Below, piece by piece: positions 46,569-63,999 of a DNA stretch of 64,000 nucleotides. Position 1 is the stretch's first letter, and each line of letters starts with the position of its first letter. Source of the DNA: Candidatus Parcubacteria bacterium (lineage in GTDB: Bacteria; Patescibacteriota; Minisyncoccia; Phycocordibacterales; JAACPR01); assembly GCA_041158505.1 (NCBI GenBank), contig JBEBBG010000009.1, positions 5,157-69,156 of the forward strand, read 5' to 3'. Under the pieces are notes generated by a model. It saw only the letters and a list, made by a program, of their open reading frames with translations. It had not been told where the DNA came from and made no database searches. Position numbers and translations under genes: made by a program.

Positions 46569-46902
46569 ACGCCTCACAAAAGAAATAATTGCGTTTCGAA
46601 ACCGACGGAAGTGGAAACAATTCCATAATCCAAAAGACGTCGCACTTTCTTTAGTACTTGAGGCGACAGAGGTTATGGAACATTTTCAATGGAAAAGTCC
46701 TGAGGAAATGAAAACATACGTTAAGAAGAATAAAACAGCAATTAGCGAAGAACTTGCTGATGTTTTGTACTGGGTACTGCTGCTATCACACGATCTCAAT
46801 ATTGATATCGAGAAAGCACTAGACAATAAAATAAAAATCAATAACGAAAAATATCCTGTATCAAAAGCAAAGGGGAGTCATGCAAAGTACACAGAACTAT
46901 AG
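46555..46902 (+). CDS. MazG-like nucleoside triphosphate pyrophosphohydrolase (all-alpha NTP-PPase)
   Basis: LVLEATEVMEHF...EELADVLYWVLLLSHDLNIDIEKALDNKIKINNEKYP matches the MazG/DCTPP1-type EExxE...EELGDxL metal-binding pattern. 115 aa. Confidence 0.65.
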   Translation: MNPIKRLTKEIIAFRNRRKWKQFHNPKDVALSLVLEATEVMEHFQWKSPEEMKTYVKKNKTAISEELADVLYWVLLLSHDLNIDIEKALDNKIKINNEKYPVSKAKGSHAKYTEL

Positions 46903-48466
46903 TATGTCTGAGATTAAAACATTTAAATTTGATAGCAAAAATTTCGATGAAATTCGGGCGTACAAATTTGGTACAAATTGGCCCGTGGTTTACCTCATTG
47001 AGGATGGAAAAGAAATCTATGTAGGAGAGACCGTAAATGCATACCAGCGGAGTAAGCAGCACTTAGAAAACGCCGCTCGTGCGCGTCTTAAACGCATTCA
47101 CATTATCGGTGACGAAGAGTACAACAAATCAGCAACTCTCGATACAGAATCGTGGCTTATTCAGTACATGTCTGCTGAAGAAAAGTTTGTACTTCAAAAT
47201 GGAAACCGGGGCCTCAAAAATCACAGCTACTTTGATCGTGAAAAATATAGAGCAAAATTCGAACGAACATGGCAAAAGTTAAAAGAGATGGCCATCGTCC
47301 AAAAAGATTTAGTGCAGATTCGCAACAGCGACATTTTTAAATATTCTCCATATAAAGCACTGACGCAAGATCAAATGCTTGTTGTGCGAAAAATTGTAAA
47401 GCACCTTATTTTACAAAAAGAGCACACGTTTATCATTAATGGAAAGCCAGGAACAGGGAAAACAATCCTTGCTGTCTATCTCATAAAATACCTAAAAGAA
47501 CGAGAGGAAACAAAGCATTTAAATGTTGCCCTTGTGGTACCCATGACCTCACTTCGAAAAACAATTCAGAAGGTTTTCCGAAAAGTTTCTGGGCTCAGTT
47601 CTAGTATGGTAATTGGTCCAAACGACGTCACCAGCAAACAGTACGATTTACTTATTGTTGATGAGGCGCACCGATTGCGCAGGCGTGTGAATATCACAAA
47701 TTTTCGTTCGTTTGATACAACTAATAAAAAACTTGGTTTTACAAATGAAGGTACTGAGCTTGATTGGGTTTTGCGCTCGGCAAAAAATCACATTTTATTT
47801 TACGACAAAAACCAGAGCGTTCGCCCCTCAGACATACCCCATGCCCGTTTCGACGCATTAGAAGCAACTCACTTTGAACTAGAGAGTCAGTTGCGAGTAG
47901 AAGGCGGGGAAGAGTATGTAACTTTCATTGATAATCTTTTTGACACAGCTGTACAAAACAAAATAGCTATCAAAAACTATGATTTTAAGTTGTATACGAA
48001 CATTGTTCAGATGGTTGAGGATATAAAGCAAAAAGATAAGGAGTTTGGTTTGTCTCGAATGGTTGCCGGTTATGCGTGGAACTGGAACACAAAACGCGGC
48101 GGAGAATATGACATTGATATCGACGGACTAAAACTTACGTGGAATAGTAGCGCAAGCGACTGGGTAAATTCACCGAATGCACTGAATGAAGTTGGTTGTA
48201 TTCACACAGTGCAAGGATACGATCTTAACTATACCGGCGTAATTATTGGACCAGAAATTTTTTACAATAAAGAAATTAGAAAGATTTGCGTAAGTCCGCA
48301 AAAATATAAGGACATCAACGGCAAGCGCTCAGTCTCTGATCCCGAAGAATTAACTCGATACGTCATCAATATTTATAAAACATTAATGACTCGGGGTATT
48401 AAAGGGACGTACGTATACATTGTGGACCGAGATTTACGAGAATATATAGAATCTCAGCTTGTCTAG
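46880..48466 (+). CDS. GIY-YIG nuclease domain fused to a DUF2075-type P-loop (SF1 helicase-like) ATPase
   Basis: GIY-YIG: VVYLIEDGKEIYVGETVNAYQRSKQHLEN. Walker A INGKPGTGKTILAVYL. Walker B/DEAH LLIVDEAHRL. C-terminal GYAWNWNTK...IHTVQGYDLNYTGVIIG, typical of DUF2075. Overlaps the upstream gene by 23 nt. Confidence 0.7.
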   Translation: MQSTQNYSMSEIKTFKFDSKNFDEIRAYKFGTNWPVVYLIEDGKEIYVGETVNAYQRSKQHLENAARARLKRIHIIGDEEYNKSATLDTESWLIQYMSAEEKFVLQNGNRGLKNHSYFDREKYRAKFERTWQKLKEMAIVQKDLVQIRNSDIFKYSPYKALTQDQMLVVRKIVKHLILQKEHTFIINGKPGTGKTILAVYLIKYLKEREETKHLNVALVVPMTSLRKTIQKVFRKVSGLSSSMVIGPNDVTSKQYDLLIVDEAHRLRRRVNITNFRSFDTTNKKLGFTNEGTELDWVLRSAKNHILFYDKNQSVRPSDIPHARFDALEATHFELESQLRVEGGEEYVTFIDNLFDTAVQNKIAIKNYDFKLYTNIVQMVEDIKQKDKEFGLSRMVAGYAWNWNTKRGGEYDIDIDGLKLTWNSSASDWVNSPNALNEVGCIHTVQGYDLNYTGVIIGPEIFYNKEIRKICVSPQKYKDINGKRSVSDPEELTRYVINIYKTLMTRGIKGTYVYIVDRDLREYIESQLV

Positions 48467-51711: not shown

Positions 51712-52350
51712 CTACAGCGCACACGCACCATCTGCCCACAATCCTTGCTGTGCGGCACGAGCAGCCTCCTCGGCTCGCACAAATGCATCTTGATACTGGT
51801 AGGGCACTGCATCGTCATAGGTGTACTCGTACGCGTACCCGTGGGCGATCATCAATTCATTCAAAGAGCTACTGCTATTTTCTAAAAACACATACGCGAG
51901 CGTCCGATCATATGCGTCAGTCATGCCTTGCGATTCATCAAAAACAAGCGTGACCACGTGTCCTTCTGCACGTGCCTGCAAGTACACTGCCGCCTCCTTT
52001 CCAAAGCACTCCACGGGCTTAGTAGGGTGTACCGACTCGGGCGTATCAATGCCAATGAGCCGTACCCGCGTCTGTTCTCCTTCACGAGCCGCAATCAATG
52101 TGTCACCATCAACCACACGAAGTACGTACCACTGATCAGGCGCAAGGGGAGGAAGAGCCGCTGCGGTCGTGTCCGATGAAGCAATTTGCTCACCTGCACG
52201 TTCTTCCGCGCGCACAGCAGTATCCAACGTAGTACTAAGGAATGCTTCAAACTCAGATTCTGCACCAAGCACACTCGCAACAACACCCGCCGCAACCAAG
52301 AGTACTGCAGCGATGACGGCTTTTACTTTAGGTGATCCAGTTATACCCAT
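51712..52350 (-). CDS. secreted thermonuclease (staphylococcal nuclease/SNase-like)
   Basis: Signal/TM AVIAAVLLVAAGVVASVLG. SNase core WYVLRVVDGDTLIAAREGEQTRVRLIGIDTPE...KPVECFGKEA...YDRTLAYVF... Confidence 0.75.
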   Translation of the reverse strand: MGITGSPKVKAVIAAVLLVAAGVVASVLGAESEFEAFLSTTLDTAVRAEERAGEQIASSDTTAAALPPLAPDQWYVLRVVDGDTLIAAREGEQTRVRLIGIDTPESVHPTKPVECFGKEAAVYLQARAEGHVVTLVFDESQGMTDAYDRTLAYVFLENSSSSLNELMIAHGYAYEYTYDDAVPYQYQDAFVRAEEAARAAQQGLWADGACAL

Positions 52351-54644: not shown

Positions 54645-56263
54645 TTCGATTTTTAATCAAAAAACTCCGCGCGCTTCTCAAGCGTCAAATGCGTGATATT
54701 GCACTGTACCAAGACACGCACCCTACAACTCCGGTACCCACGGCAGTAGCGACGCCTGTCCTTACTCCAGTGCAAGAACCAAGCGAAGAAGAGCTTGAGG
54801 CAGATATCCCATCACCAAAAGCAATTGGAGTAGATGCAGCAGATGCACCAGCAAAGGAGGAGGTTGCTGATTCACCTGTTTCGGTCGCAGGCGCTTTTGT
54901 ACCAATGCAAGCGTTTAACCCAAACGTGGTCATCACACGCGTGCCGCCATCTCCAACAGGATCACTGCACGTTGGTACTGCGCGCACCATGCTCTTTAAC
55001 TACCTCTTTGCGCGTCAGAACGGCGGCAAACTCTACCTGCGCATGGAGGATACTGACAAGGAGCGCAGCAAAATTGAGCATGAAGCAGACATCATTGAGG
55101 GTCTGCAGTGGCTTGGACTAACCTGGGACAACAGCGACACCATTTACCGGCAGAGCGAGCAGACCGAACGCTACCGCGAAGCGCTTGAGTATTTGATCGC
55201 AACAGGCACAGCCTACGTTTCAAAGGAAGCAGCAGAAGAAGGGAAACGAGCAGAGGTGATTCGATTTAAGAATCCAAACAAGGTTGTCACCTTTACCGAT
55301 ATTATTCGTGGCGATATTAGCTTCGATACCACAGAGCTTGGCGATTTCGTGATTGCGAAATCGCTCGACGAACCGCTCTACCATCTTGCCGTCGTTGTTG
55401 ATGATATCGACATGGCAATTACGCACATCATTCGTGGTGAAGATCACATTTCAAACACACCTCGACAAATTCTTATCCAAGAGGCACTTGGTGCACCGCG
55501 TCCACAGTATGCACACGTACCGCTCCTACTCGGCGAAGACAAAGCAAAACTCTCGAAGCGTAAGGGTGCAAAATCAATTGATCAGTTCAAAGCAGAGGGA
55601 TACCTACCGCAAGCCGTGCTGAACTTCCTCGCGCTCCTTGGTTGGAATCCAGGAGATGATCGAGAACTATTCAGCCTCGAGGAACTCATTACCGCTTTCT
55701 CACTCGAAAATGTTCAGAAGGGAGGTGCCGTTTTCTCAGAGACAAAGCTCCGCTGGTTTAACCATGAGTACCTCAAACTGCTCACTCCTGAAGCCCAGAA
55801 AGAGCTCCTCAATAGCATCAAAGCAGCGCTTGAGGCTCATGGTGCCCCAAAAGCGCTTGCGCGTTCACTCACACCGCTCGTGTCTGAACGAATCGACATA
55901 CTCAGCGATGTCACCAAGCTTCTTGAAAGTGGTGAGTTGCAGTACTTTTTTGAGGCACCTACCTACGACGTTAATGGGTTGCTGTGGAAGAAGGCCGAGA
56001 GCCTTGCTGAGATGAAAACACACCTCAGCGCCGTTCGCGATATGATTGCACCACTTGAAACGTGGACACTCGAGCAGATTAAAGCAGTGGTCTGGGACTA
56101 CGCTGGTGAGCACGGTCGTGGCAATGTCCTTTGGCCATTTCGATTTGCGCTCTCAGGACGCGAGCAATCTCCTGACCCATTTGAGATTGCTGAAATTTTG
56201 GGAAAAGAAGAAACCCTTGCTAGAATTGATACTGCAGTAGCACGTATCAATGAGCACGCCTAA
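54641..56263 (+). CDS. gltX: glutamyl-tRNA synthetase with a ~90-aa low-complexity N-terminal extension
   Basis: VITRVPPSPTGSLHVGTARTMLFNYLFAR (HIGH-type). KLSKRKG (KMSKS). ATGA start overlap with murG. An alternative internal start MQAFNPN lies at 54905. Confidence 0.85.
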   Translation: MIRFLIKKLRALLKRQMRDIALYQDTHPTTPVPTAVATPVLTPVQEPSEEELEADIPSPKAIGVDAADAPAKEEVADSPVSVAGAFVPMQAFNPNVVITRVPPSPTGSLHVGTARTMLFNYLFARQNGGKLYLRMEDTDKERSKIEHEADIIEGLQWLGLTWDNSDTIYRQSEQTERYREALEYLIATGTAYVSKEAAEEGKRAEVIRFKNPNKVVTFTDIIRGDISFDTTELGDFVIAKSLDEPLYHLAVVVDDIDMAITHIIRGEDHISNTPRQILIQEALGAPRPQYAHVPLLLGEDKAKLSKRKGAKSIDQFKAEGYLPQAVLNFLALLGWNPGDDRELFSLEELITAFSLENVQKGGAVFSETKLRWFNHEYLKLLTPEAQKELLNSIKAALEAHGAPKALARSLTPLVSERIDILSDVTKLLESGELQYFFEAPTYDVNGLLWKKAESLAEMKTHLSAVRDMIAPLETWTLEQIKAVVWDYAGEHGRGNVLWPFRFALSGREQSPDPFEIAEILGKEETLARIDTAVARINEHA

Positions 56264-57599
56264 GACCACACACCCAAGAGCACGACGACGAGCGCTCGCA
56301 GGTCTCTGCGGGCTCTTTGTTATGGTTGGCATACTCATGGGTACACCTCCAGAGTTTGCACTCGCTGATGAAGAAAAGATTGAAGAACTCCAAAAAAACA
56401 TTGGCGCACTAAACGACAAGCTCGACGAAATTAACCAAGCAATTAAGGAAGCAGAATCGCGTGTCGCAGCGTCGAGTGCAGAAGCGGCAAGTATTGCAAG
56501 CAGGGTCCGCCAGCTCGAAGCGAGCCGCTCAAAGATTGAGAAAGACATTTCGTATACCGAAACACAAATCCAAAAAACGCAGCTTGAAATTGAAAAAATC
56601 GGCTACGAAATTTCAGACAAGGAAACGCGCATCGCTCGCAATACTGAAGCACTGGCTGTTGCCATTAAAGAGCTCGATGCAATGGAATCACTCTCTTTGA
56701 TTGAGCTTTTGCTGGCATACGACAACCTTGGCGACTTTTTTAATCAGGTCCAGGCAATTGAAACATTCCAAGACACCGTGCAGGATACCGTGCTTACGCT
56801 TCGTGGCCTCAATACCGAACTTCGTACCAAGCAGCAAGCAGAAGCCCAAGAGAAGCAGCAACTTGAGTCGAGCAGAAAGCTATTGAGCGGTGAACGAGAA
56901 GCAGTTGCGAGCACAAAATCAAAACAACAAGAGCTCCTCACCGTTGCTCAAAAAACCGAAGCAGAGCAACGTGCGTACCTTGCTCAAAAGCAGCAAGAGA
57001 AGCAGCAGTTCGAATCAGCACTCCTCGAATTTGAATCAGAACTCAAAACGCTCATCGATCCAACGAGCTTTCCGAGTGCACGACAAGGAGTGCTGAGCTG
57101 GCCGGTTGATACCGTTCGCATTACACAGCAGTTTGGTGGTACGCAATTTGCAAAAAACAACCCACACATCTACGGTCGCGCAATGCACAATGGTACAGAC
57201 TTCGGCGTTCCTGTTGGTTCAAAGGTATATGCCGTCACCGATGGTGTGGTCCAAGCAAGCGGCAATACCGATGCATACCCAGGCTGCCGTTCATGGGGAA
57301 AGTGGATACTGGTAAAGCACACCAACGGCCTCAGTTCACTGTATGCACACCTCTCGAGCATTTTGGTAAATGAGGGAGATTCAGTCACTAAGGGGCAGAA
57401 TATTGCACTATCAGGCAATACAGGCGTCTCAACAGGACCACACCTACACCTCACCCTATATGCATCACAAGGTGTACAGGTAGTGAAATTTAACGAGTTC
57501 AAACCAGGCGCAACGGGATGTGCTGCGACCGGCGCTGCAACTCCAGTGGCACCACTTGAGGCATACCTCGATCCGATGACGTACTTGCCTAGTTTATAG
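56250..57599 (+). CDS. M23-family metallopeptidase with N-terminal coiled coil (EnvC/NlpD-like)
   Basis: Signal/TM. A long coiled-coil region. M23 motifs HNGTDFGVPVGSKVYAV and ...GNTGVSTGPHLHLTLY. Confidence 0.75.
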   Translation: MSTPKTTHPRARRRALAGLCGLFVMVGILMGTPPEFALADEEKIEELQKNIGALNDKLDEINQAIKEAESRVAASSAEAASIASRVRQLEASRSKIEKDISYTETQIQKTQLEIEKIGYEISDKETRIARNTEALAVAIKELDAMESLSLIELLLAYDNLGDFFNQVQAIETFQDTVQDTVLTLRGLNTELRTKQQAEAQEKQQLESSRKLLSGEREAVASTKSKQQELLTVAQKTEAEQRAYLAQKQQEKQQFESALLEFESELKTLIDPTSFPSARQGVLSWPVDTVRITQQFGGTQFAKNNPHIYGRAMHNGTDFGVPVGSKVYAVTDGVVQASGNTDAYPGCRSWGKWILVKHTNGLSSLYAHLSSILVNEGDSVTKGQNIALSGNTGVSTGPHLHLTLYASQGVQVVKFNEFKPGATGCAATGAATPVAPLEAYLDPMTYLPSL

Positions 57600-57654: not shown

Positions 57655-58488
57655 GTGCGTATGAGGGGGATTATTTTTAAAAAAAGTGCTTTTTCTTTGC
57701 TATGCGTAGCGTTAGTGTCTGCGCCATTTCTCGTATTTAGCCAGGAAGTAGTTTCCGATGCCCCTAGCGCACCATCGCAAGGATACTTTATCGATAATAC
57801 GAAGCCTGAAAACGAGCGCGTTGTTGAATCCGCAACGTTTGATAATGAATCGAGCAGTATTGTCCGATCAACAAACTCAGAAACACAAGAGGCTACTACT
57901 GAAACCGATACTCCCACCGAAGATCCTGCCGCAGCAGAGCAACCATCCGGAGAAGCAGAGAACGCTGCTGATGCTGCCGCTCCAGAACCTCAGGAAGAGG
58001 CACCTACAGCACAAGCAGCAGAAGAGGCACCAGCAGCAGAAACCACAACGGAACCTGCTCCCGAACCCGTTGCAGAAAAACCTACTCCTGCTCCAGTAGC
58101 GCAACCACAGGAAGAAGTTGAACCGCCAATGCGAACCTTCACAAAAAAGATTTTTGTGAATAAAGATGCTGTACACACCTGCACCGCAGAAGTCTTTAGT
58201 GTCGACATGAGCGGTCGCACCACCGCTCAAAACACCCTACAGCTCACCAAAGAAGCTGACATCGCATACGAACTCGAAGTTGGAAGTTTGCCAACAGGTA
58301 TCGATGTACGTTTTACAGACGGTAATAGCTACTACAAAAATATCGGTCTTGAAGACGAGAGCGCCGACTTTACGATTAGCCTCGAAAGCAACGCCGCAAA
58401 GGGAAGCTTTACTATCCCTATTATTTACACACAAAAGGGTGTCTTTGACTCATCAGTAGTTTGCCAGGTTAACGTAGTGAACCAATGA
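57655..58488 (+). CDS. hypothetical secreted protein with acidic P/A/E-rich linker
   Basis: Signal peptide LLCVALVSAPFLVFSQE. A low-complexity region EAPTAQAAEEAPAAETTTEPAPEP. A folded C-terminal domain. Confidence 0.5.
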   Translation: MRMRGIIFKKSAFSLLCVALVSAPFLVFSQEVVSDAPSAPSQGYFIDNTKPENERVVESATFDNESSSIVRSTNSETQEATTETDTPTEDPAAAEQPSGEAENAADAAAPEPQEEAPTAQAAEEAPAAETTTEPAPEPVAEKPTPAPVAQPQEEVEPPMRTFTKKIFVNKDAVHTCTAEVFSVDMSGRTTAQNTLQLTKEADIAYELEVGSLPTGIDVRFTDGNSYYKNIGLEDESADFTISLESNAAKGSFTIPIIYTQKGVFDSSVVCQVNVVNQ

Positions 58489-59435
58489 GTAAGTATCTGA
58501 ACCAGCGCGCACTATCGCTACTAACGCTGCTCCTGTTTGTACTCTGTATAGTACTTACTATTTTTTATTTCCGGGAGAGGGAAAGTAATCCTGCGCACGC
58601 ACTCGAAACGTATAGCTTTATTAACCCTACTCGAAACCTCATTGAGCAAAAGCACTTCTTCTCAACACTTCAACCACTTCGTGAAGATATTCGTAACACC
58701 ATCGCTGACTACGAAGCCGAAGGATACCGAGTTGGTTTGTACTTTGAATACCTCAACACAGGTGGCAACATCTCGGTAAATCCGGACATGCGCTTTTGGC
58801 CTGCATCACTGAGCAAAATGCCAACGGCCTTTGTGGTCATGAAAAAAATACAAGATGGCGATTGGGAACTTTCAAATGAACTGGTCCTTTTTGAAGAAGA
58901 TCGAGATAATCGTTTTGGAATGCTCTACACAGAACCAGTTGGTACACGCCTCACTGTTGAAGAACTCCTCAAGAAGCTACTCGTCGAGTCTGATAACACG
59001 GCACACAAGATGCTTATTCGTAACGTTGCAAGTACTGAATTTGACATGCTTATTGAAGCGCTCGGTATGGGAGAGCTCTTCGATAAAGAATACGACATCA
59101 CCGCAAAAGAGTACTCGCGCATCTTTAGTGCACTCTTTAATGCAAGCTACCTAGACAGAGAGCATTCACAGATGCTTTTAACATACCTTGCAGAAACACC
59201 GTTTACAGAATTTATCGATAGCGGTATCCCGGATGATGTTGTCTTTTCACATAAAATCGGCGAGGAATTTGAGAAATCAGTCTTTTTGGATAGCGGTATT
59301 GTCTACGTACCAAATCGACCATACCTCATCACCATCATGGTCGACACGAGTGCTAACGACGGGGGTGTAGAGAAGGCAAAGGAAATTATGAAAACGCTTT
59401 CAGAAAAAGCATACAACTATGTGGCAAGCTATTAA
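58485..59435 (+). CDS. serine hydrolase with class-A beta-lactamase/PBP-like fold
   Basis: N-terminal TM. SxxK (ASLSKMPTAF), SDN (ESDNTAHKML), and a KTG-like HKIGEE. ATGA overlap with the upstream gene. Confidence 0.6.
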   Translation: MSKYLNQRALSLLTLLLFVLCIVLTIFYFRERESNPAHALETYSFINPTRNLIEQKHFFSTLQPLREDIRNTIADYEAEGYRVGLYFEYLNTGGNISVNPDMRFWPASLSKMPTAFVVMKKIQDGDWELSNELVLFEEDRDNRFGMLYTEPVGTRLTVEELLKKLLVESDNTAHKMLIRNVASTEFDMLIEALGMGELFDKEYDITAKEYSRIFSALFNASYLDREHSQMLLTYLAETPFTEFIDSGIPDDVVFSHKIGEEFEKSVFLDSGIVYVPNRPYLITIMVDTSANDGGVEKAKEIMKTLSEKAYNYVASY

Positions 59436-59463
59436 ACAAGCAGCGAAGAAAGTATTTGTATGC

Positions 59464-62400
59464 ATGCTCATACTCTTTTTGTTTCTTTCTGGTTTTCCAA
59501 GTAAAGACTTCTTTGCGTTTGCGCGAGATGCATTTCGAGATCGAAACGTAATCGACAGCCTGTACTTAGCGCTTCAGGATAAGGATGTAGTTGACCGAGA
59601 TGCTCAGCTTTTACTGAACTCACCAGTACCTAAAGCATCAGCCGCAACGTTTCAAATGAACTCTGGTTACTATATCGGTAACGGAGGTGTGAAAACTATT
59701 TCCGGACTTGGATTTCGTCCTGAATTAATCTTATTAAAATCTAACAGTGCAACAATCGCCAGTGTCTTTCACACAAATATCATGCCAGATGATACCACTG
59801 CATACATGGGTAGCGCCACAGCAGACAGTACCGCAGGATTTGTGAGAATTGAGGAAGATGGGTTTGAAGTGTACTCAACAGCAAACACTGCAAACACACG
59901 GTACACATGGGTTGCATTTGCTGGATCTGACTGTAGTGCTTCAGGCACTATGTGTATTGGAAGCTACGTGGGTAACGGTGCATCCAATCAAGCAATAACC
60001 TCCGTTGGTTTCCAACCTGATTTAGTATGGACAAAACGAACTACAAACGAACGATCCGCCACATGGAGATCCTCATCCATGTCTACTAACTACGGGCAAT
60101 ACTTCTCCGCCACCACACAAGATACGACGGGTGTGCTTTTCCAAACACTCGACGCGACAGGCTTTACTGTTGGGTTAAGCAATAACACAAGTACTGGTAT
60201 CTATTACTACGTCGCATTCAAAGAGGTATCTGGGTTTATGGATGTGGGCACCTATACGGGAAATGCTACAGACAACAGAAGTATTACAGGGGTTGGCTTT
60301 AAACCCGATTGGGTTTTCTTAAAAAATGCAAATGCAGGCACACCTGTTGCTGCCTCATTCTCACAAAAAGAAATGTACGGTGATTCAACAGGTCTGTTTA
60401 CAGCAGCTCAAAATATATCCGACTCTATCCAAACATTAGAAAGTGATGGATTTCAGGTTGGTGCAAATTCCAGTTCAAACGGAACAACCAACACTGTGCA
60501 CTATGCCGCTTTTAAAGGTGTTCCTGCAGTAAGTTCATCTGGTACATTCAAAATGGCAAGCGGTTCATACACTGCAGACAGCACCATTAAAATCATTGAG
60601 GGATTGGACTTCAAACCAGACCTAGTCATTATCAAAGGAGAAACCACGCAAGCCGGAGTATTTCGAACAAGTCTGATGGGAGGAAACTCTACTGCATATT
60701 TAGACTCCGCAACAGCAAACTTTTCCGGAGGTATTACTGCAATGAACCACGACGGTTTTACCATTGGTGAACACGCTACGGTAAACACCCACGGAATTAC
60801 GTACCACTGGCAAGCCTTTGGAGGTGCATGGAATCCAGAAACTAAATCAGGTTCATCTGATTTTTATATTGGCGCATACTACGGAAACACCCTTGATAAC
60901 AGAACTGTAGCAGATCTCCCGTTTCAAGCTGACTTACTTGTTGTAAAAAGATTTGGTGCCAGCGGTGGAGTGTTTAAGACATCAGCCCACACTGGTGACA
61001 CAACAAGTTCTTTTGCAGCAACAGCTGATGTGGCTGATTACATTCAAACTATAAATGCAGATGGTTTTCAGGTTGGGAACGGAGGATCATCAATTAATGC
61101 AAATGGGCAAATATACTTTTACTTTGGCTTTAAAGAAGGGAGTGATTTTGATGTGGGTACGTACTCTGGTAATGCTTCAGACAACCGCGATATCACAAAC
61201 CCTGGATTTGACCCTGACCTCGCTTGGATAAAGAGAAGCACAGCGGTAGCCGGCGTTACTCGTCCAAGCACGCTTGCCGGGGACCTGACACAATATTTTA
61301 TTACTACTGCACAAGCTGCTGGAAGAATTAAATCTTTTGTGACGGGTGGTTTTAGATTGGGAACCCAAACAGAAGTAAATGCCAGTGGCGGAACCTACTA
61401 CTACGCAACATGGGATGTAAACAGTACTCAGTCTGCCGTAGATCCAGTAGATTACGCCATGAGAACTGGTTACTACATGGGAAATGGAACACATCAAGAA
61501 ATTACAGGACTTGGCTTTAGGCCTGAGATGGTAATTATCAAAGCCAACACCAACGCTGGACACGGAACGGTGTACAAGAACGAGTATATGCCCGAAAGTG
61601 CTGTGAATGGCCTTGGTCTAAACTCGTCGAGCGCAGTCCTCACAGAAACAGCAACGTACGATATTATTTTTCAAGCAGACGGATTCCGTGTTGTTGGTGC
61701 AAACACAAATACTGTAAACGCGGGGTACACTTGGATTGCGTTTGCTGGATCAAACTGTACCATCACGGGCGCATTCTGTACGGGTGGATACCTTGGAACA
61801 TATGGTGTCACCAACGGTGTACCTGTATTTGGTAGAAAATTAAAAACTGGTTTTCCACCAGGACTGTTAGCAATTAGTACCAAATCAGCTGGAATCGGAC
61901 CAATTTTTACAACACAAGATTTTCAGACAGATATCGGGACACACGGTGCATTTGCAGCAGATTTCGGTGCTGCATCTGCTGCTACAGAACTCATGAAAAC
62001 TAATGATTTAGGAATCGGAATACTAAATGGTAACTACTCTATTAGTGCCATAGGACACTACTTCTTTGGATTTGCTGGCAAATCGGGCACATACGACACT
62101 GCGACATACGAATGGACTCGCACCGCAGGACCAACTGCTGGAAACGCGTTGAGCGGAAATAGCATAACTGTAGATAGTGTTGATGGAGACGTTTTTGTAG
62201 GAGGAAACTTTACTGGAACTGTTGATTTAGATCCTACAAGTGGTACGGATAGTCGCACTGCCACAGCCGGTGATATTTATCTAAGTAAGTACACCGCAAG
62301 TGGGTCGTATGGATGGAGCAGAGTATTTGGTGGGTCAGGATCAGATGCTGCAAGTAGTGTGGCAGCAGACAGTAGCGGAAATATCTTTGTATCAGGAAAC

Positions 62401-63999
62401 TTTTCCAACTCTGTTGATTTTGATGACACGGGGGGAACAGATACTAAAGCATCGGTTGGGTCATCAGACGTCTTTGTAACCAAGTACAACGCAGACGGGT
62501 CGTATGGATGGACTCGCAACTTTGGCAATAGTTCTGAAACTGAAAAAGCAATTACAACGGATCCAAGCGGCAATGTCTTTATTGTAGGAAGTTTTGGAGC
62601 CACAATCGATTTTGATGGCACCGCAGGAACTGATAGCAAAGGAGTATCGGGAAATATCGATGCTTTTCTTACTAAATACAACGCAGACGGGTCGTATGGG
62701 TGGACGAGAGCAGTAGGTGGAACAGCAGCTGATTCGGCTAACAGCGTTGCAACAGACAGTAGTGGTAATGTTTTTATAACAGGCAGCTTTACAGGAACTG
62801 TTGATTTGGATGGAACCGCAGGAACTGACAGCCGAACATCAAATACATCGTCAACTGATGTATTTATAACCAAATACAACGCAGACGGTACATATGGATG
62901 GAGCAGAGTATTTGGAGGAACCACTTCAAATGATCAGGGTATCGGTATTTCAGTTGATGGTGATGGAAATGTTTACACGACAGGAGAATTTGAGGGAACA
63001 GTTGACTTTGATGATAACGGAGGAACAGATAACGTAACGCCATTTAACAGCAAAGACGTCTTTGTAACCAAGTACAATGCAGATGGGTCGTATGGGTGGA
63101 CTAAACGTATGGGAACAAACGGTAACGACCTAGCTGCAGGTATTGCAGTTGACACCGACGGCAACAGTTTCACCTTAGGACATTACGCATCAGGTAGAGC
63201 ACTCATTCAATTGAGTTCGAGCGGTATCTTTAAAACAACAAATACCATACCGGATGTGCGTTCCACAGGAGCAAATGCCTTTACTGGTCACAAAGTCGCA
63301 ATTAATGGTGCTGATGTGCATGTCGTTGGTAACTTTAAGAATACAGTAAACTTTGATGACACTGGTGGAACTGATACCCACGTAGGAACTCCTATCGATA
63401 CCGAAAACCTCTTTACCATGAAGTACTCGTTTGGCACATACAACTACACGACGACACATAATGATGTGATTGAGAGTGATTCGTATGCAGGCGATGGCAC
63501 AAGCCGAACCATTACTACAGGTTTCAGCCCAGACTTCGTTTGGGTACGAGGAAATAACGGCAGTGCGTACAGTATTTTTAATACAAAAAACTCATTTGGT
63601 AGCAACACAAGTTTCATAAACGACCTCGCAAACCTTGTTGGTGGCATTACTGGACTTGGTACAAATAGTTTCCAAGTTGCAAACAACATTAACGCCAATC
63701 AAAGTGCTATAAACTACTACTACACAGCACTCAAAGAAACAGCTACTCCTGCCACACCAAGTGGATCATTCACCATGGAAACAGGTACGTACACAGGTAA
63801 TGGCGCATACAAACGAATCGGGGGATTAAGCGGTAAACCGGATTTACTAATTATCAAAGGCGAAACTACACAGCAATCAGTATTCCGCACAAAGGTAATG
63901 CCTTCAAACTCAACTGCGTATCTGGGTTCTGCAACGGCAAACCTTGGACTTGCGATTTCATCATTGAACCATGACGGGTTCAATGTCGGTAACAGTGCT
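59464..63999 (+). CDS. giant secreted repeat protein (at least 1512 aa, 3' end beyond the window) with SBBP-like beta-propeller blades and a reiterated ~100-aa module
   Basis: The frame was read by hand and is open from the ATG at 59464 to the window end, with no in-frame stop (checked in several stretches). There are no plus-strand entries in the ORF track because no stop falls inside the window. Blades YNADGSYGWTR.FGG...SGN.F..G.F....DFD.T.GTD appear at least six times in the region 62150-63200. Modules G.Y.GNG....I.GLGF.PDL.I.K...//DGF.VG recur along the whole protein. Confidence 0.6.
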   Translation, partial: MLILFLFLSGFPSKDFFAFARDAFRDRNVIDSLYLALQDKDVVDRDAQLLLNSPVPKASAATFQMNSGYYIGNGGVKTISGLGFRPELILLKSNSATIASVFHTNIMPDDTTAYMGSATADSTAGFVRIEEDGFEVYSTANTANTRYTWVAFAGSDCSASGTMCIGSYVGNGASNQAITSVGFQPDLVWTKRTTNERSATWRSSSMSTNYGQYFSATTQDTTGVLFQTLDATGFTVGLSNNTSTGIYYYVAFKEVSGFMDVGTYTGNATDNRSITGVGFKPDWVFLKNANAGTPVAASFSQKEMYGDSTGLFTAAQNISDSIQTLESDGFQVGANSSSNGTTNTVHYAAFKGVPAVSSSGTFKMASGSYTADSTIKIIEGLDFKPDLVIIKGETTQAGVFRTSLMGGNSTAYLDSATANFSGGITAMNHDGFTIGEHATVNTHGITYHWQAFGGAWNPETKSGSSDFYIGAYYGNTLDNRTVADLPFQADLLVVKRFGASGGVFKTSAHTGDTTSSFAATADVADYIQTINADGFQVGNGGSSINANGQIYFYFGFKEGSDFDVGTYSGNASDNRDITNPGFDPDLAWIKRSTAVAGVTRPSTLAGDLTQYFITTAQAAGRIKSFVTGGFRLGTQTEVNASGGTYYYATWDVNSTQSAVDPVDYAMRTGYYMGNGTHQEITGLGFRPEMVIIKANTNAGHGTVYKNEYMPESAVNGLGLNSSSAVLTETATYDIIFQADGFRVVGANTNTVNAGYTWIAFAGSNCTITGAFCTGGYLGTYGVTNGVPVFGRKLKTGFPPGLLAISTKSAGIGPIFTTQDFQTDIGTHGAFAADFGAASAATELMKTNDLGIGILNGNYSISAIGHYFFGFAGKSGTYDTATYEWTRTAGPTAGNALSGNSITVDSVDGDVFVGGNFTGTVDLDPTSGTDSRTATAGDIYLSKYTASGSYGWSRVFGGSGSDAASSVAADSSGNIFVSGNFSNSVDFDDTGGTDTKASVGSSDVFVTKYNADGSYGWTRNFGNSSETEKAITTDPSGNVFIVGSFGATIDFDGTAGTDSKGVSGNIDAFLTKYNADGSYGWTRAVGGTAADSANSVATDSSGNVFITGSFTGTVDLDGTAGTDSRTSNTSSTDVFITKYNADGTYGWSRVFGGTTSNDQGIGISVDGDGNVYTTGEFEGTVDFDDNGGTDNVTPFNSKDVFVTKYNADGSYGWTKRMGTNGNDLAAGIAVDTDGNSFTLGHYASGRALIQLSSSGIFKTTNTIPDVRSTGANAFTGHKVAINGADVHVVGNFKNTVNFDDTGGTDTHVGTPIDTENLFTMKYSFGTYNYTTTHNDVIESDSYAGDGTSRTITTGFSPDFVWVRGNNGSAYSIFNTKNSFGSNTSFINDLANLVGGITGLGTNSFQVANNINANQSAINYYYTALKETATPATPSGSFTMETGTYTGNGAYKRIGGLSGKPDLLIIKGETTQQSVFRTKVMPSNSTAYLGSATANLGLAISSLNHDGFNVGNSA

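What the first reader, a model, noticed from the sequence alone, without database searches (positions are those of the whole stretch)
59464..63999. Giant secreted protein (over 1500 aa, truncated by the window) with a reiterated novel ~100-aa module and an SBBP-like beta-propeller
A single open frame read by hand from the ATG at 59464 to the window end is absent from the ORF track only because no stop occurs inside the window. It contains at least six tandem blades of the form KYNADGSYGWTR.FGG....A......D.SGN.F..G.F.G..DFDG.AGTDS (62150-63200), typical of SBBP/PQQ-like beta-propeller repeats. Before and after the propeller there are at least 8 copies of a module with the skeleton [FY].M.SG.Y.GNG....I.G.GF.P[DE]L...K.......VF.T..M.....AY.GSATA........L..DGF.VG...N..G..Y.W.AF.G. 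I do not recognise this module. The upstream operon partners are a secreted acidic protein and a beta-lactamase-fold hydrolase. In Patescibacteria-like organisms such giant surface proteins are candidates for host-cell attachment.
Basis: seen in the sequence. Interest (0 to 1): 0.65.

Follow-up and report, generated by a model that had tools for sequence, protein, structure and literature searches.

The report
Giant tail-fibre-like pilus subunit, CPR bacterium
This is a real 2095-residue exported protein of a Patescibacteria (CPR) bacterium that joins four phage-tail-fibre-like units and a beta-propeller to a C-terminal pilin of the recently described CPR "Pam" pilus, which makes it a candidate for the still-unknown host-binding subunit of that pilus.

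Summary
The frame is open to the window end. The true start is ATG 59419, not 59464, and the complete protein is 2095 aa (P0001, Candidatus Parcubacteria MAG).

The "unrecognised" ~100-aa module is not new. It is Pfam DUF7483 (PF24299) and also matches phage tail-fibre and virion PHROGs.

- There are 12 modules, 10 of them in the window, grouped into four ~300-aa units of three.
- AlphaFold2 models six modules as one confident body (pLDDT 95, pTM 0.92). The model matches predicted phage proteins strongly (Foldseek E down to 1e-43) and no solved structure closely.
- A 7-bladed SBBP propeller lies between modules 8 and 9. A syntenic relative has the same gene without it.

The main result lies just past the window. 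The last 350 aa form a beta-sandwich, a linker and a Pam-pilin C-terminal domain (NCBIfam NF058581, 59 bits against a cutoff of 55). The next gene is a Pam pilin, and the one after it looks like a membrane-anchored chaperone. Of 120 relatives, 47 end in this pilin domain.

A beta-lactamase-fold gene overlaps the start of the giant gene in 8 of the 11 different gene contexts examined.

Best reading: a pilus-borne adhesin built on the FimH plan. This is inferred, not shown. I rate it a new variant of known kinds.

The parts
59419..63999 (+). Giant gene: codons 1-1527 of 2095. The rest is outside the window, at L001:10001-16288.
   Evidence: No stop codon in the frame. 100% identical to P0001, 'hypothetical protein RL150_390 [Candidatus Parcubacteria bacterium]'.
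59419..59523 (+). N-terminal Sec-type signal or membrane anchor (aa 1-35: a basic stretch, a hydrophobic helix, then SGFPS...AFA|RD)
   Evidence: Read from the sequence. The same layout occurs in homologues. Whether the signal is cleaved was not tested.
59524..59643 (+). Conserved leader between the membrane segment and the first module (aa 36-75: ..DRNVIDSLYLALQDKDVVD..)
   Evidence: Conserved in relatives. It is present in all 8 looked-up gene contexts that have the upstream beta-lactamase-fold gene and absent from the 3 that lack it.
59644..60525 (+). DUF7483 unit 1 (modules 1-3, aa 76-369)
   Evidence: Pfam PF24299. Module HMM. AlphaFold2 model with pLDDT 95.4.
60526..61437 (+). DUF7483 unit 2 (modules 4-6, aa 370-673). 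It is a paralogue of unit 4.
   Evidence: Modules 4/5/6 are 60/56/71% identical to modules 10/11/12. The ~300-aa unit matches relatives end to end.
61438..62079 (+). DUF7483 unit 3, first two modules (modules 7 and 8, aa 674-887). Module 8 is degenerate.
   Evidence: Module 7 matches the 7th module of relatives best (72% identity to P0004).
62080..63453 (+). Seven-bladed SBBP beta-propeller (aa 888-1345), inserted between modules 8 and 9
   Evidence: Pfam SBBP. Seven blades. Among 120 relatives only P0001 and P0003 carry it. The syntenic relative P0002 lacks it.
63454..63747 (+). DUF7483 unit 3, third module (module 9, aa 1346-1443)
   Evidence: Module HMM. It matches the 9th module of P0002, P0004 and P0011 best.
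63748..63999 (+). DUF7483 unit 4, start of module 10, cut by the window end. Modules 10-12, the X domain, the linker and the Pam-pilin C-terminal domain follow outside the window.
58485..59435 (+). Membrane-anchored beta-lactamase-fold serine hydrolase. It overlaps the start of the giant gene by 17 nt and is a conserved partner.
   Evidence: PF13354, E 1e-38. SLSK and SDN motifs. A gene of this family sits directly upstream in 8 of the 11 different gene contexts examined.
57655..58488 (+). Secreted acidic low-complexity protein of 277 aa. It overlaps the next gene by 4 nt.
   Evidence: No family match. Its C-terminal part is not like the pilin domain. A protein of similar size occupies the same position in L014.
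56250..57599 (+). Coiled-coil M23 peptidoglycan endopeptidase in the same run of genes
   Evidence: PF01551. Resembles ShyA/MepM by NCBIfam. An M23 domain is fused to the DUF7483 core in relatives P0017, P0089 and P0090.

Best explanation
The gene encodes a giant subunit of a Pam-type pilus. The Pam pilus is specific to CPR bacteria and assembles by donor-strand exchange, with no outer-membrane usher.

Proposed mechanism:
1. The protein is exported through Sec by its N-terminal signal.
2. [quoted passage not shown] The membrane-anchored protein encoded two genes downstream, a putative chaperone, holds this unit.
3. Strand exchange then joins it to the 357-aa pilin encoded by the next gene.
4. 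The remaining ~1700 aa are the passenger: four DUF7483 units that AlphaFold2 models as fixed bodies, homologous to units in phage tail-fibre and virion proteins, with a 7-bladed SBBP propeller looped out of the third unit.
5. The passenger is carried on the pilus, most likely at or near its tip, and recognises the surface of the host bacterium. This is the two-part plan of FimH and PapG: a binding part at the N-terminus and a pilin at the C-terminus.

Shown here by computation: the domain composition, the homologies, the gene neighbourhood and the fact that the propeller is an insertion.
Inferred: export, incorporation into a pilus, position on the pilus, and host binding.
For: **The C-terminus is a Pam-type pilin**
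- aa 1746-2095 scores 59.1 bits on NCBIfam NF058581 CPR_Pam_pilin_C (cutoff 55).
- Relative P0002 scores 59.4 bits when scanned at full length.
- The linker plus C-terminal domain is 49% identical over 165 aa to the next gene's product (E 4e-40). That product scores 82.4 bits on the same model.
- Proteins of 500-600 aa that share the whole 350-aa unit score 69 and 84 bits.
- The AlphaFold2 model of this region has pLDDT 95.9 and shows two beta domains joined by a strand.
- Its best solved matches are two-domain adhesins: FimH, CfaE, FnBPA and antigen I/II (probability 0.9-0.99, but TM-score only 0.2-0.3).

**The neighbours fit a pam operon**
- The third gene (370 aa) has a signal peptide, a beta-rich body, a C-terminal membrane helix and a basic tail. 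This is the layout the Pam preprint describes for chaperones PamC and PamD (bioRxiv 10.64898/2026.03.03.709456).
- Genes for a pilin-domain protein and for this 370-aa family lie beside DUF7483 genes in L001, L003, L005/L006, L008, L009, L010 and L013.
- 47 of 120 relatives end exactly in the pilin domain. The ~130-aa tails of many others resemble it (hhalign probability 97%).
- The preprint reports a 'tail fibre-like protein' consistently located with pam operons.

**The passenger resembles phage receptor-binding hardware**
- It matches PHROG 'tail fiber protein' and 'virion structural protein' families.
- tblastn finds Pelagibacter, Methylophilales, Roseobacter and Synechococcus phage proteins, including a match that starts at the first codon of HTVC011P gp37 'tail fiber protein'.
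- Foldseek against predicted viral structures gives E down to 8.6e-43, and one ~300-aa unit superposes at 2.8 A.

**Variable add-ons on a conserved core**
- Relatives carry a propeller, LamG, fn3, M23 or MG2 domains on the same core, which suggests ligand-binding diversity.
Against: - The Pam-pilin score is barely above the cutoff. The hit was not listed when the full 2095-aa protein was scanned.
- The chaperone assignment rests on protein layout alone. No HMM or solved-structure match supports it.
- The N-terminal membrane segment and leader are conserved, and its signal-peptidase site is not. The protein may therefore stay anchored in the membrane, which fits a tip position poorly.
- The module count is fixed at 6 or 12. 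That is more typical of a structural scaffold than of an adhesin stalk.
- Some relatives (P0005, P0008) have no recognisable pilin domain and sit in type IV pilus loci.
- No ligand, binding site or expression data exist.
- I could not inspect the model coordinates.
Confidence: 0.45

Rival explanations
1. Basal stalk or anchor of the Pam pilus. The N-terminal helix stays in the membrane. The 12-module body spans the cell wall. The C-terminal pilin unit donates its linker strand to the last pilin, tethering the filament, a role proposed for PamR in M. amalyticus.
For: - The membrane segment and leader are conserved, and the signal-peptidase site is not.
- The module number is fixed at 6 or 12.
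- The model is confident as one body (pTM 0.92).
- The protein is consistently associated with membrane-anchored cell-wall enzymes: the beta-lactamase-fold partner, M23 and LysM.
- The linker strand is present, so donating a strand is possible.
Against: - Homology to phage receptor-binding proteins, and the variable binding-type add-ons (propeller, LamG, fn3), point to an exposed recognition role.
- The preprint assigns anchoring to a different kind of protein, PamR, which has a C-terminal membrane helix and an N-terminal strand.
Confidence: 0.2
2. A cell-surface adhesin or fibril that is not part of a pilus. It is held by its N-terminal anchor or by non-covalent wall binding through the C-terminal domain, as WxL domains do in Firmicutes. 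The neighbouring pilin-domain proteins would form a surface complex rather than a filament.
For: - The more divergent versions of the C-terminal domain carry literal W-x-L motifs such as GWTLT and SWSLG.
- 8 of 40 members of the 370-aa family give weak hits to WxLIP_PGBD (precomputed hits).
- The locus layout recalls Gram-positive WxL (Csc) clusters. This comparison is from my own knowledge.
Against: - No Pfam WxL hit at E <= 1 among 76 relatives of the C-terminal region.
- The curated model that does match is the Pam pilin domain, which derives from pilins solved by cryo-EM in filaments.
Confidence: 0.17
3. An envelope scaffold of the S-layer type: a widely conserved, rigid, fixed-length lattice protein of the CPR cell surface.
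For: - The module number is fixed and the model is rigid.
- The family is large: 2342 representatives at 50% identity with E <= 1e-3.
- The gene is placed among cell-wall and division genes: ftsW, murG and M23.
Against: - The C-terminal pilin domain and the pilin and chaperone-like neighbours are not explained by this view.
- The termini vary greatly between relatives.
- No data on lattices or abundance exist.
Confidence: 0.08
4. A prophage tail-fibre gene or a remnant of one.
For: Matches to PHROG, phage tblastn and predicted viral structures.
Against: - The neighbours are housekeeping genes (ftsW, murG, gltX) and none is a phage gene.
- The same synteny occurs in relative L014.
- The beta-lactamase-fold/DUF7483 gene pair is conserved across many CPR genomes.
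- The protein has a Sec signal, which virion proteins do not.
Confidence: 0.02

Closest known systems
Pam pilus pilins PamA/PamB/PamE/PamT of Candidatus Mycosynbacter amalyticus (Troman et al., bioRxiv 10.64898/2026.03.03.709456; NCBIfam NF058581 and NF058579)
   Same: - CPR-specific.
- Sec signal.
- Beta-sandwich, linker strand and truncated-Ig C-terminal domain.
- The C-terminal domain HMM scores above its cutoff.
- The adjacent gene is a pilin of PamB size (357 aa), followed by a protein with a C-terminal membrane helix, as in PamC and PamD.
   Different: - It carries a ~1700-aa N-terminal passenger that no described Pam pilin has.
- It scores far below the PamT equivalog cutoff (36 against 240).
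- Assembly into a filament is not shown.
- The preprint mentions only a co-located 'tail fibre-like protein', not a fusion.
Two-domain tip adhesins of chaperone-usher pili (FimH, PapG, CfaE)
   Same: - The plan is the same: a receptor-binding part at the N-terminus and a pilin domain with an incomplete Ig fold at the C-terminus.
- The C-terminal model matches FimH and CfaE in Foldseek (probability 0.95-0.99).
   Different: - TM-scores are only 0.2-0.3 and there is no sequence similarity.
- There is no usher and no outer membrane.
- The binding part is about ten times larger and unrelated to the FimH lectin domain.
- It works like these adhesins but is not a member of their family.
Phage proteins containing DUF7483 (PHROG 24898 'tail fiber protein', PHROG 19943 'virion structural protein'; Pelagibacter phage HTVC011P gp37, HTVC204P, Methylophilales phage MEP301, Roseobacter phage CRP-406)
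   Same: - The same ~95-aa, 8-strand module and the same ~300-aa three-module unit.
- One unit superposes at 2.8 A on a predicted phage protein.
   Different: - This is a chromosomal gene of a cell, with a Sec signal, four units in a row and a pilin at the end.
- The function of the module has not been tested in phages either.
Pilus adhesins with a propeller (PilY1 of Pseudomonas; PilX2 of Nanosynbacter lyticus, PMC11623550) and SBBP surface proteins (Leptospira LipL53 family)
   Same: A seven-bladed propeller displayed on a pilus-associated or surface protein. In PilY1 and PilX2 it is proposed to bind the host.
   Different: - The propellers are of a different type (SBBP here) and belong to a different pilus system.
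- Here the propeller is an internal insertion, not a C-terminal domain.
- The LipL53 equivalog cutoff is not reached (133 against 400).
WxL surface-protein clusters of Firmicutes (WxL domain proteins with DUF916/WxLIP membrane proteins)
   Same: - The locus logic is alike: proteins ending in a shared ~150-aa beta domain, next to a protein with a signal peptide, Ig-like domains and a C-terminal membrane helix.
- Members of the 370-aa family give weak WxLIP_PGBD hits.
- Divergent copies of the C-terminal domain carry W-x-L motifs.
   Different: - No significant match to the Pfam WxL model.
- Any relationship is a lead, not a result.

Membership tests
Pfam DUF7483 (PF24299) | HMM score above the gathering cutoff (27 bits) | tested here: met
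   165.4 bits with 9 stretches for the window part. 204.7 bits for the full protein. 6 of 10 single modules reach 27 bits when scanned alone, 3 fall just below it (20.1-25.0 bits) and the degenerate module 8 gives no match.
Pfam DUF7483 (PF24299) | The domain is a ~300-330-aa unit, here made of three ~95-aa modules | tested here: met
   - Single modules match profile positions 3-110 or 230-327 of 330.
- The 303-aa unit aligns end to end in most relatives.
- Relatives carry 6, 9 or 12 modules.
Pfam SBBP beta-propeller repeat (PF06739) | HMM above the cutoff, with tandem blades closing a propeller | tested here: met
   84.9 bits against 20.5. Seven blades plus a closing strand. The propeller itself was not modelled.
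NCBIfam LipL53-family SBBP lipoprotein (NF047494, equivalog) | Score of at least 400 bits over the whole protein | tested here: not met
   121.6 and 132.8 bits. Only the repeats are shared.
Pam pilus pilin (NF058581 CPR_Pam_pilin_C) | C-terminal domain HMM score of at least 55 bits | tested here: met
   - 59.1 bits for aa 1746-2095, which is marginal.
- The hit was not listed when the full-length protein was scanned.
- Relative P0002 scores 59.4 bits at full length.
- 49% identity to the neighbouring pilin, which scores 82.4 bits.
Pam pilus pilin | Nine-strand beta-sandwich N-terminal domain, a single linker (donor) strand, and a C-terminal domain that is an open truncated-Ig barrel | tested here: inconclusive
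   The AlphaFold2 model (pLDDT 95.9) has two all-beta domains joined by a strand at residues 189-193 of the fragment. I could not inspect the coordinates, so neither the strand count nor the open groove is verified.
Pam pilus pilin | N-terminal Sec signal | tested here: met
   A basic stretch followed by a hydrophobic segment at aa 1-35. Cleavage was not tested.
Pam pilus system | Operon with further pilins and with PapD/FimC-like chaperones that carry a C-terminal membrane helix | tested here: inconclusive
   - The pilin neighbour is confirmed.
- The 370-aa neighbour has the right layout, and its family lies beside pilin-domain genes in the loci of 7 different DUF7483 proteins.
- It has no HMM or solved-structure match to PapD-type chaperones.
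Pam pilus system | Polymerisation by donor-strand exchange into a filament | not testable with these tools
   This needs multimer prediction or experiment.
PamT tip pilin (NF058579, equivalog) | Score of at least 240 bits; a single C-terminal domain with no linker | tested here: not met
   36.4 bits. A linker-like strand is present.
Chaperone-usher tip adhesins (FimH/PapG) | Homologous lectin and pilin domains; an usher in an outer membrane | tested here: not met
   Only low TM-score fold matches (0.20-0.28). No sequence match to any solved chain. No usher gene in the loci read.
Phage tail fibre | Encoded in a phage or prophage structural gene block | tested here: not met
   The domain is shared, but the neighbours are ftsW, murG, gltX and M23, and this synteny is conserved.
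WxL domain surface proteins (Pfam PF13731) | A match to the Pfam WxL model | tested here: not met
   No WxL hit at E <= 1 in any of 76 relatives of the C-terminal region.

The most novel reading that the evidence does not exclude
Fusions of DUF7483 arrays to Pam pilins are the missing host-specificity subunits of the CPR-wide Pam pilus. On this reading:
- Episymbiotic bacteria recognise their bacterial hosts with the same receptor-binding module that marine phages carry on their tails.
- The modules are delivered on a pilus built by donor-strand exchange in a cell without an outer membrane.
- Lineage-specific inserts such as this propeller retune host range.
- The translationally coupled beta-lactamase-fold protein is a dedicated partner that processes or holds the conserved leader.
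- The system may share ancestry with the WxL surface complexes of Firmicutes.
Probability: 0.3. Interest if true: 0.8.

Novelty: new variant of a known kind. Interest (0 to 1): 0.6.

Why it matters
How CPR/Patescibacteria find and hold their host cells is largely unknown. The Pam pilus preprint of 2026 states that it is not known how the pilins contact the host, and it names no adhesin.

A protein that joins phage-type receptor-binding units to a Pam pilin gives a concrete candidate that can be tested. It is widespread: the ~300-aa unit matches 2342 cluster representatives.

It would also link phage receptor-binding proteins to the attachment machinery of episymbionts. The variable inserts would give a handle for predicting host range from genomes.

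For annotation, the practical lessons are:
- The 'novel' module is DUF7483.
- The gene continues 568 codons past the window.
- The informative domains lie in that missing part.

Tried and rejected
- **PDB match for the six-module model.** Foldseek against the PDB gave only weak hits: Parkia lectin, APC-beta and the PCSK9 C-terminal domain, with TM-scores at most 0.31. I take from this only a hint of a three-lobed arrangement.
- **Sequence searches of solved structures.** The modules, the C-terminal region (as a single sequence and as a profile) and the 370-aa family found nothing.
- **Literature.** A search for 'DUF7483' found no paper. The Saccharibacteria type IV pilus paper and the Tn-seq paper do not mention this family. 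The Pam preprint's supplement has nothing on the tail fibre-like protein.
- **Genome scan.** The scan with the alignment failed because no stretch was conserved enough. The scan with the single protein found only one relative.
- **WxL idea for the C-terminal domain.** No Pfam support. I kept it as a side note only.
- **Acidic upstream protein as a hidden pilin domain.** Rejected (hhalign probability 0.2%).
- **Alignment across the insertion.** A semi-global alignment did not bridge the propeller. I replaced it with a module-by-module best-hit test and with synteny.
- **ATP synthase and type IV pilus ATPase motifs in the window.** None found. The ATP-synthase association reported for pam operons is therefore not seen within these 64 kb.
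- **Prophage origin.** Rejected on gene context.

Full report
**1. The observation.** The frame from 59464 to 63999 translates without a stop (1512 codons).
- The in-frame stop upstream is at 59389. An ATG at 59419 gives MWQAIKQAAKKVFVCMLILFLFLSGF..., a basic stretch followed by a hydrophobic segment.
- A search of 5.8 billion proteins returned an identical protein. It is P0001, 2095 aa, 'MAG: hypothetical protein RL150_390 [Candidatus Parcubacteria bacterium]'. It starts at this ATG, and close homologues start the same way.
- The window therefore holds codons 1-1527 of 2095. The whole gene was read on a second contig, L001:10001-16288.

**2. The module is known.**
- Pfam matches it as DUF7483 (PF24299): E 2e-48, 165 bits against a cutoff of 27, in nine stretches.
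- Scanned one by one, modules match profile positions 3-110 or 230-327 of a 330-position model. One Pfam domain therefore equals about three modules.
- PHROGs matches 'tail fiber protein' (phrog_24898, E 2e-33) and 'virion structural protein' (phrog_19943, E 3e-27).
- tblastn against 50,697 phage records finds seven, all marine: Pelagibacter, Methylophilales, Roseobacter and Synechococcus phages. One match starts at the first codon of HTVC011P gp37, annotated 'tail fiber protein'.
- No paper in the library mentions DUF7483.

**3. Anatomy of the full protein.** An HMM built from the protein's own repeats finds 12 modules: aa 82-886 (eight) and aa 1353-1738 (four).
- Modules 4, 5 and 6 are 60, 56 and 71% identical to modules 10, 11 and 12. 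A three-module unit was therefore duplicated.
- Modules in the same phase of the three-module period are more alike than those out of phase (36% against 29%, p 0.02).
- Among 120 relatives nearly all carry 12, 6 or 9 modules, or six, an fn3 domain, then six.
- The 303-aa unit aligns end to end with most of 2342 cluster representatives in a library of 1.84 billion.
- The SBBP region has seven blades and a closing strand, aa 888-1345. It lies between modules 8 and 9.
- Evidence that the propeller is an insertion:
  - Module 7 matches the 7th module of relatives best, and module 9 the 9th.
  - Only P0001 and the fragment P0003 carry the propeller.
  - Relative P0002 has the same neighbours (SNase, ftsW, murG, gltX, M23, an unknown gene, the beta-lactamase-fold gene) and no propeller.
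- The propeller is therefore a lineage-specific insertion into the third unit.

**4. Structure.** AlphaFold2 was run on aa 60-672 (six modules) with 98 homologues.
- It gave pLDDT 95.4 and pTM 0.92. Each module has eight strands.
- A pTM this high over 613 residues means the modules are predicted in fixed relative positions, not as loose beads.
- Foldseek against the PDB gave no close match, with TM-scores at most 0.31. The best hits were three-lobed beta structures: Parkia lectin, APC-beta and the PCSK9 C-terminal domain.
- Foldseek against predicted viral structures gave E down to 8.6e-43. One target is named 'DUF7483 domain-containing protein [uncultured Caudovirales phage]', and one superposition covers 304 columns at 2.8 A.
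- I could not inspect the coordinates, so a pseudo-threefold packing of each unit remains an inference.

**5. The C-terminus and the neighbours.**
- The last 350 aa have no Pfam match.
- As a fragment they match NCBIfam NF058581, 'Pam pilus system pilin subunit', at 59.1 bits (cutoff 55).
- The next gene (357 aa, with a signal peptide) matches the same model at 82.4 bits. It is 49% identical to the giant's C-terminus over 165 aa. The alignment starts at a near-identical strand, QSLTFAISDNSVGFG against QSITFTISDNSIGFG.
- The family comes from a June 2026 preprint, bioRxiv 10.64898/2026.03.03.709456. It describes cryo-EM structures of two pilins of Candidatus Mycosynbacter amalyticus.
  - The chaperones PamC and PamD have a C-terminal membrane helix.
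  - There is no usher.
  - The system is found only in CPR bacteria.
- The preprint notes in one sentence that a 'tail fibre-like protein' is consistently located with pam operons. It also says that how the pili contact the host is unknown.
- AlphaFold2 on the 350 aa gave pLDDT 95.9 and two beta domains joined by a strand. The best PDB matches were FnBPA, FimH, CfaE and antigen I/II, with high probability but low TM-score.
- The third gene (370 aa) has a signal peptide, a beta-rich body, a C-terminal membrane helix and a basic tail. It belongs to a large unannotated CPR family.

**6. How general is the association?** I built HMMs of the two C-terminal domains and of the 370-aa family and searched all ORFs of the fetched loci.
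- A pilin-domain gene and a gene of the 370-aa family lie beside the DUF7483 gene in L001, L003, L005/L006, L008, L009, L010 and L013.
- They are absent from L004 and L007, which are type IV pilus loci, and from L011 and L012.
- 47 of 120 relatives end exactly in the pilin domain.
- The pooled ~130-aa tails of 34 others resemble it (hhalign probability 97%, E 6e-11), although that set is mixed.
- NCBIfam recognises the domain in P0002 at full length (59.4 bits) and in 500-600-aa proteins that share the whole 350-aa unit (69 and 84 bits). It does not recognise the more divergent six-module proteins.

**7. The upstream partner.**
- A beta-lactamase-fold gene (PF13354) lies directly upstream in 8 of the 11 different gene contexts examined. 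In the locus coordinates reported for those 8 contexts the gene ends between 16 nt before the giant gene's start and 23 nt inside it, and it overlaps the start in 7 of them. It is absent from L009, L011 and L012.
- The 8 contexts that have it are exactly those whose giant protein begins with the conserved membrane segment and leader. The 3 without it have other N-termini.
- The window copy has a membrane helix and the SLSK and SDN motifs. It scores well below the cutoffs for true class A beta-lactamases (75 against 200).
- An M23 endopeptidase gene lies two genes further upstream. An M23 domain is fused to the DUF7483 core in some relatives.
- The role of these wall enzymes is unknown. A dedicated interaction between the beta-lactamase-fold protein and the leader is my speculation.

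**8. Interpretation.** The best-supported reading is a Pam-type pilus subunit with a very large passenger, built on the FimH/PapG plan: a binding part followed by a pilin.
- Because the passenger shares its units with phage tail-fibre and virion proteins, and because relatives add binding-type domains to the same core, I propose that it recognises the host cell surface.
- Position on the pilus is open. A tip or side position requires that the N-terminal anchor be removed. A basal anchor role would use that anchor, and it explains the fixed length and the wall enzymes.
- My confidence:
  - pilus-borne adhesin, 0.45
  - basal anchor, 0.2
  - surface adhesin or complex not on a pilus, 0.17
  - S-layer-type scaffold, 0.08
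  - prophage gene, 0.02
- Nothing here shows export, assembly or binding directly.

**9. Novelty and score.** Each part is catalogued: DUF7483, SBBP and the Pam pilin domain.
- In the literature I could search, three things are not described:
  - the fusion of a DUF7483 array to a Pam pilin
  - its frequency in the family
  - the propeller insertion
- I rate it a new variant of known kinds, with interest 0.6. The result gives a testable candidate for an open question in CPR biology, but it rests on inference and on a marginal HMM score.

Noticed in passing
window 58485-59435, with 59419-59643; loci L004, L005, L007, L008, L010, L013, L014: A membrane-anchored beta-lactamase-fold gene (SLSK and SDN motifs) lies directly upstream of the DUF7483 gene, overlapping its start in 7 of the 8 contexts. 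It occurs exactly in the 8 contexts where the giant protein begins with the conserved membrane segment and leader (..GFPS..VVD.LY..), and in none of the 3 contexts with other N-termini. This suggests a dedicated partner of the leader.
   Followed up: partly
L001:17475-18587; L008:13270-14193; L013:2869-4056; L005, L010 and L013 small genes upstream: - The 370-aa family (signal peptide, Ig-like domains, C-terminal membrane helix) gives weak WxLIP_PGBD hits in 8 of 40 members.
- Divergent copies of the pilin C-terminal domain carry literal W-x-L motifs (GWTLT, SWSLG, AWSLS).
- Pam pili and the WxL surface clusters of Firmicutes may be related.
- No significant Pfam WxL match was found.
   Followed up: partly
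L004 (P0005) and L007 (P0008): Twelve-module DUF7483 proteins without a recognisable Pam domain sit inside type IV pilus clusters (PilB, PilC, a pilin, PilM/PilN). They end in a different, cysteine-rich ~130-aa tail (..FRYKIRICSSDC..INWSP).
   Followed up: no
window 56250-57599; relatives P0017, P0089, P0090: A coiled-coil M23 peptidoglycan endopeptidase gene lies upstream in the same run of genes. In some relatives an M23 domain is fused to the N-terminus of the DUF7483 core. LysM-bearing members of the 370-aa family occur in L005, L010 and L013. Together these make a recurring link to cell-wall enzymes.
   Followed up: partly
L003:5954-7862; also L005:14361-16085 and L010:7977-9011: Downstream of the pilin and the chaperone-like gene lie two more genes: a secreted protein with dockerin-type repeats, and a cohesin-like protein with a C-terminal membrane helix. 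Weak cohesin or dockerin hits recur at other DUF7483 loci.
   Followed up: no
window about 59920-59970 and 61740-61790 (aa 172-179 and 777-786 of P0001): Cysteine pairs (SDCSASGTMC and SNCTITGAFC) sit at the junction of the first and second modules of units 1 and 3. The first pair is more than 90% conserved in the family. This probably marks a disulphide-closed loop and fits an extracellular location.
   Followed up: no
P0001 scanned at full length against its fragment aa 1746-2095: NCBIfam lists the Pam pilin domain for the 350-aa fragment (59.1 bits) but not when the whole 2095-aa protein is scanned. Automatic annotation of such giants may therefore miss the pilin domain.
   Followed up: no
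window 46880-48466 (+): A 528-aa ORF has a Schlafen-group-3-type helicase domain (E 7e-67) and a weak N-terminal GIY-YIG nuclease hit. It is possibly a defence or repair gene.
   Followed up: no
window 51712-52350 (-): A staphylococcal-nuclease-like gene on the opposite strand lies just before ftsW. It is kept at the same position in the syntenic relative L014.
   Followed up: no
window 62277-62924 (-), and other antisense ORFs between 60501 and 63983: ORFs of up to 215 aa lie antisense to the giant gene. They have no support and are probably shadows of the long repeat-coding frame.
   Followed up: no
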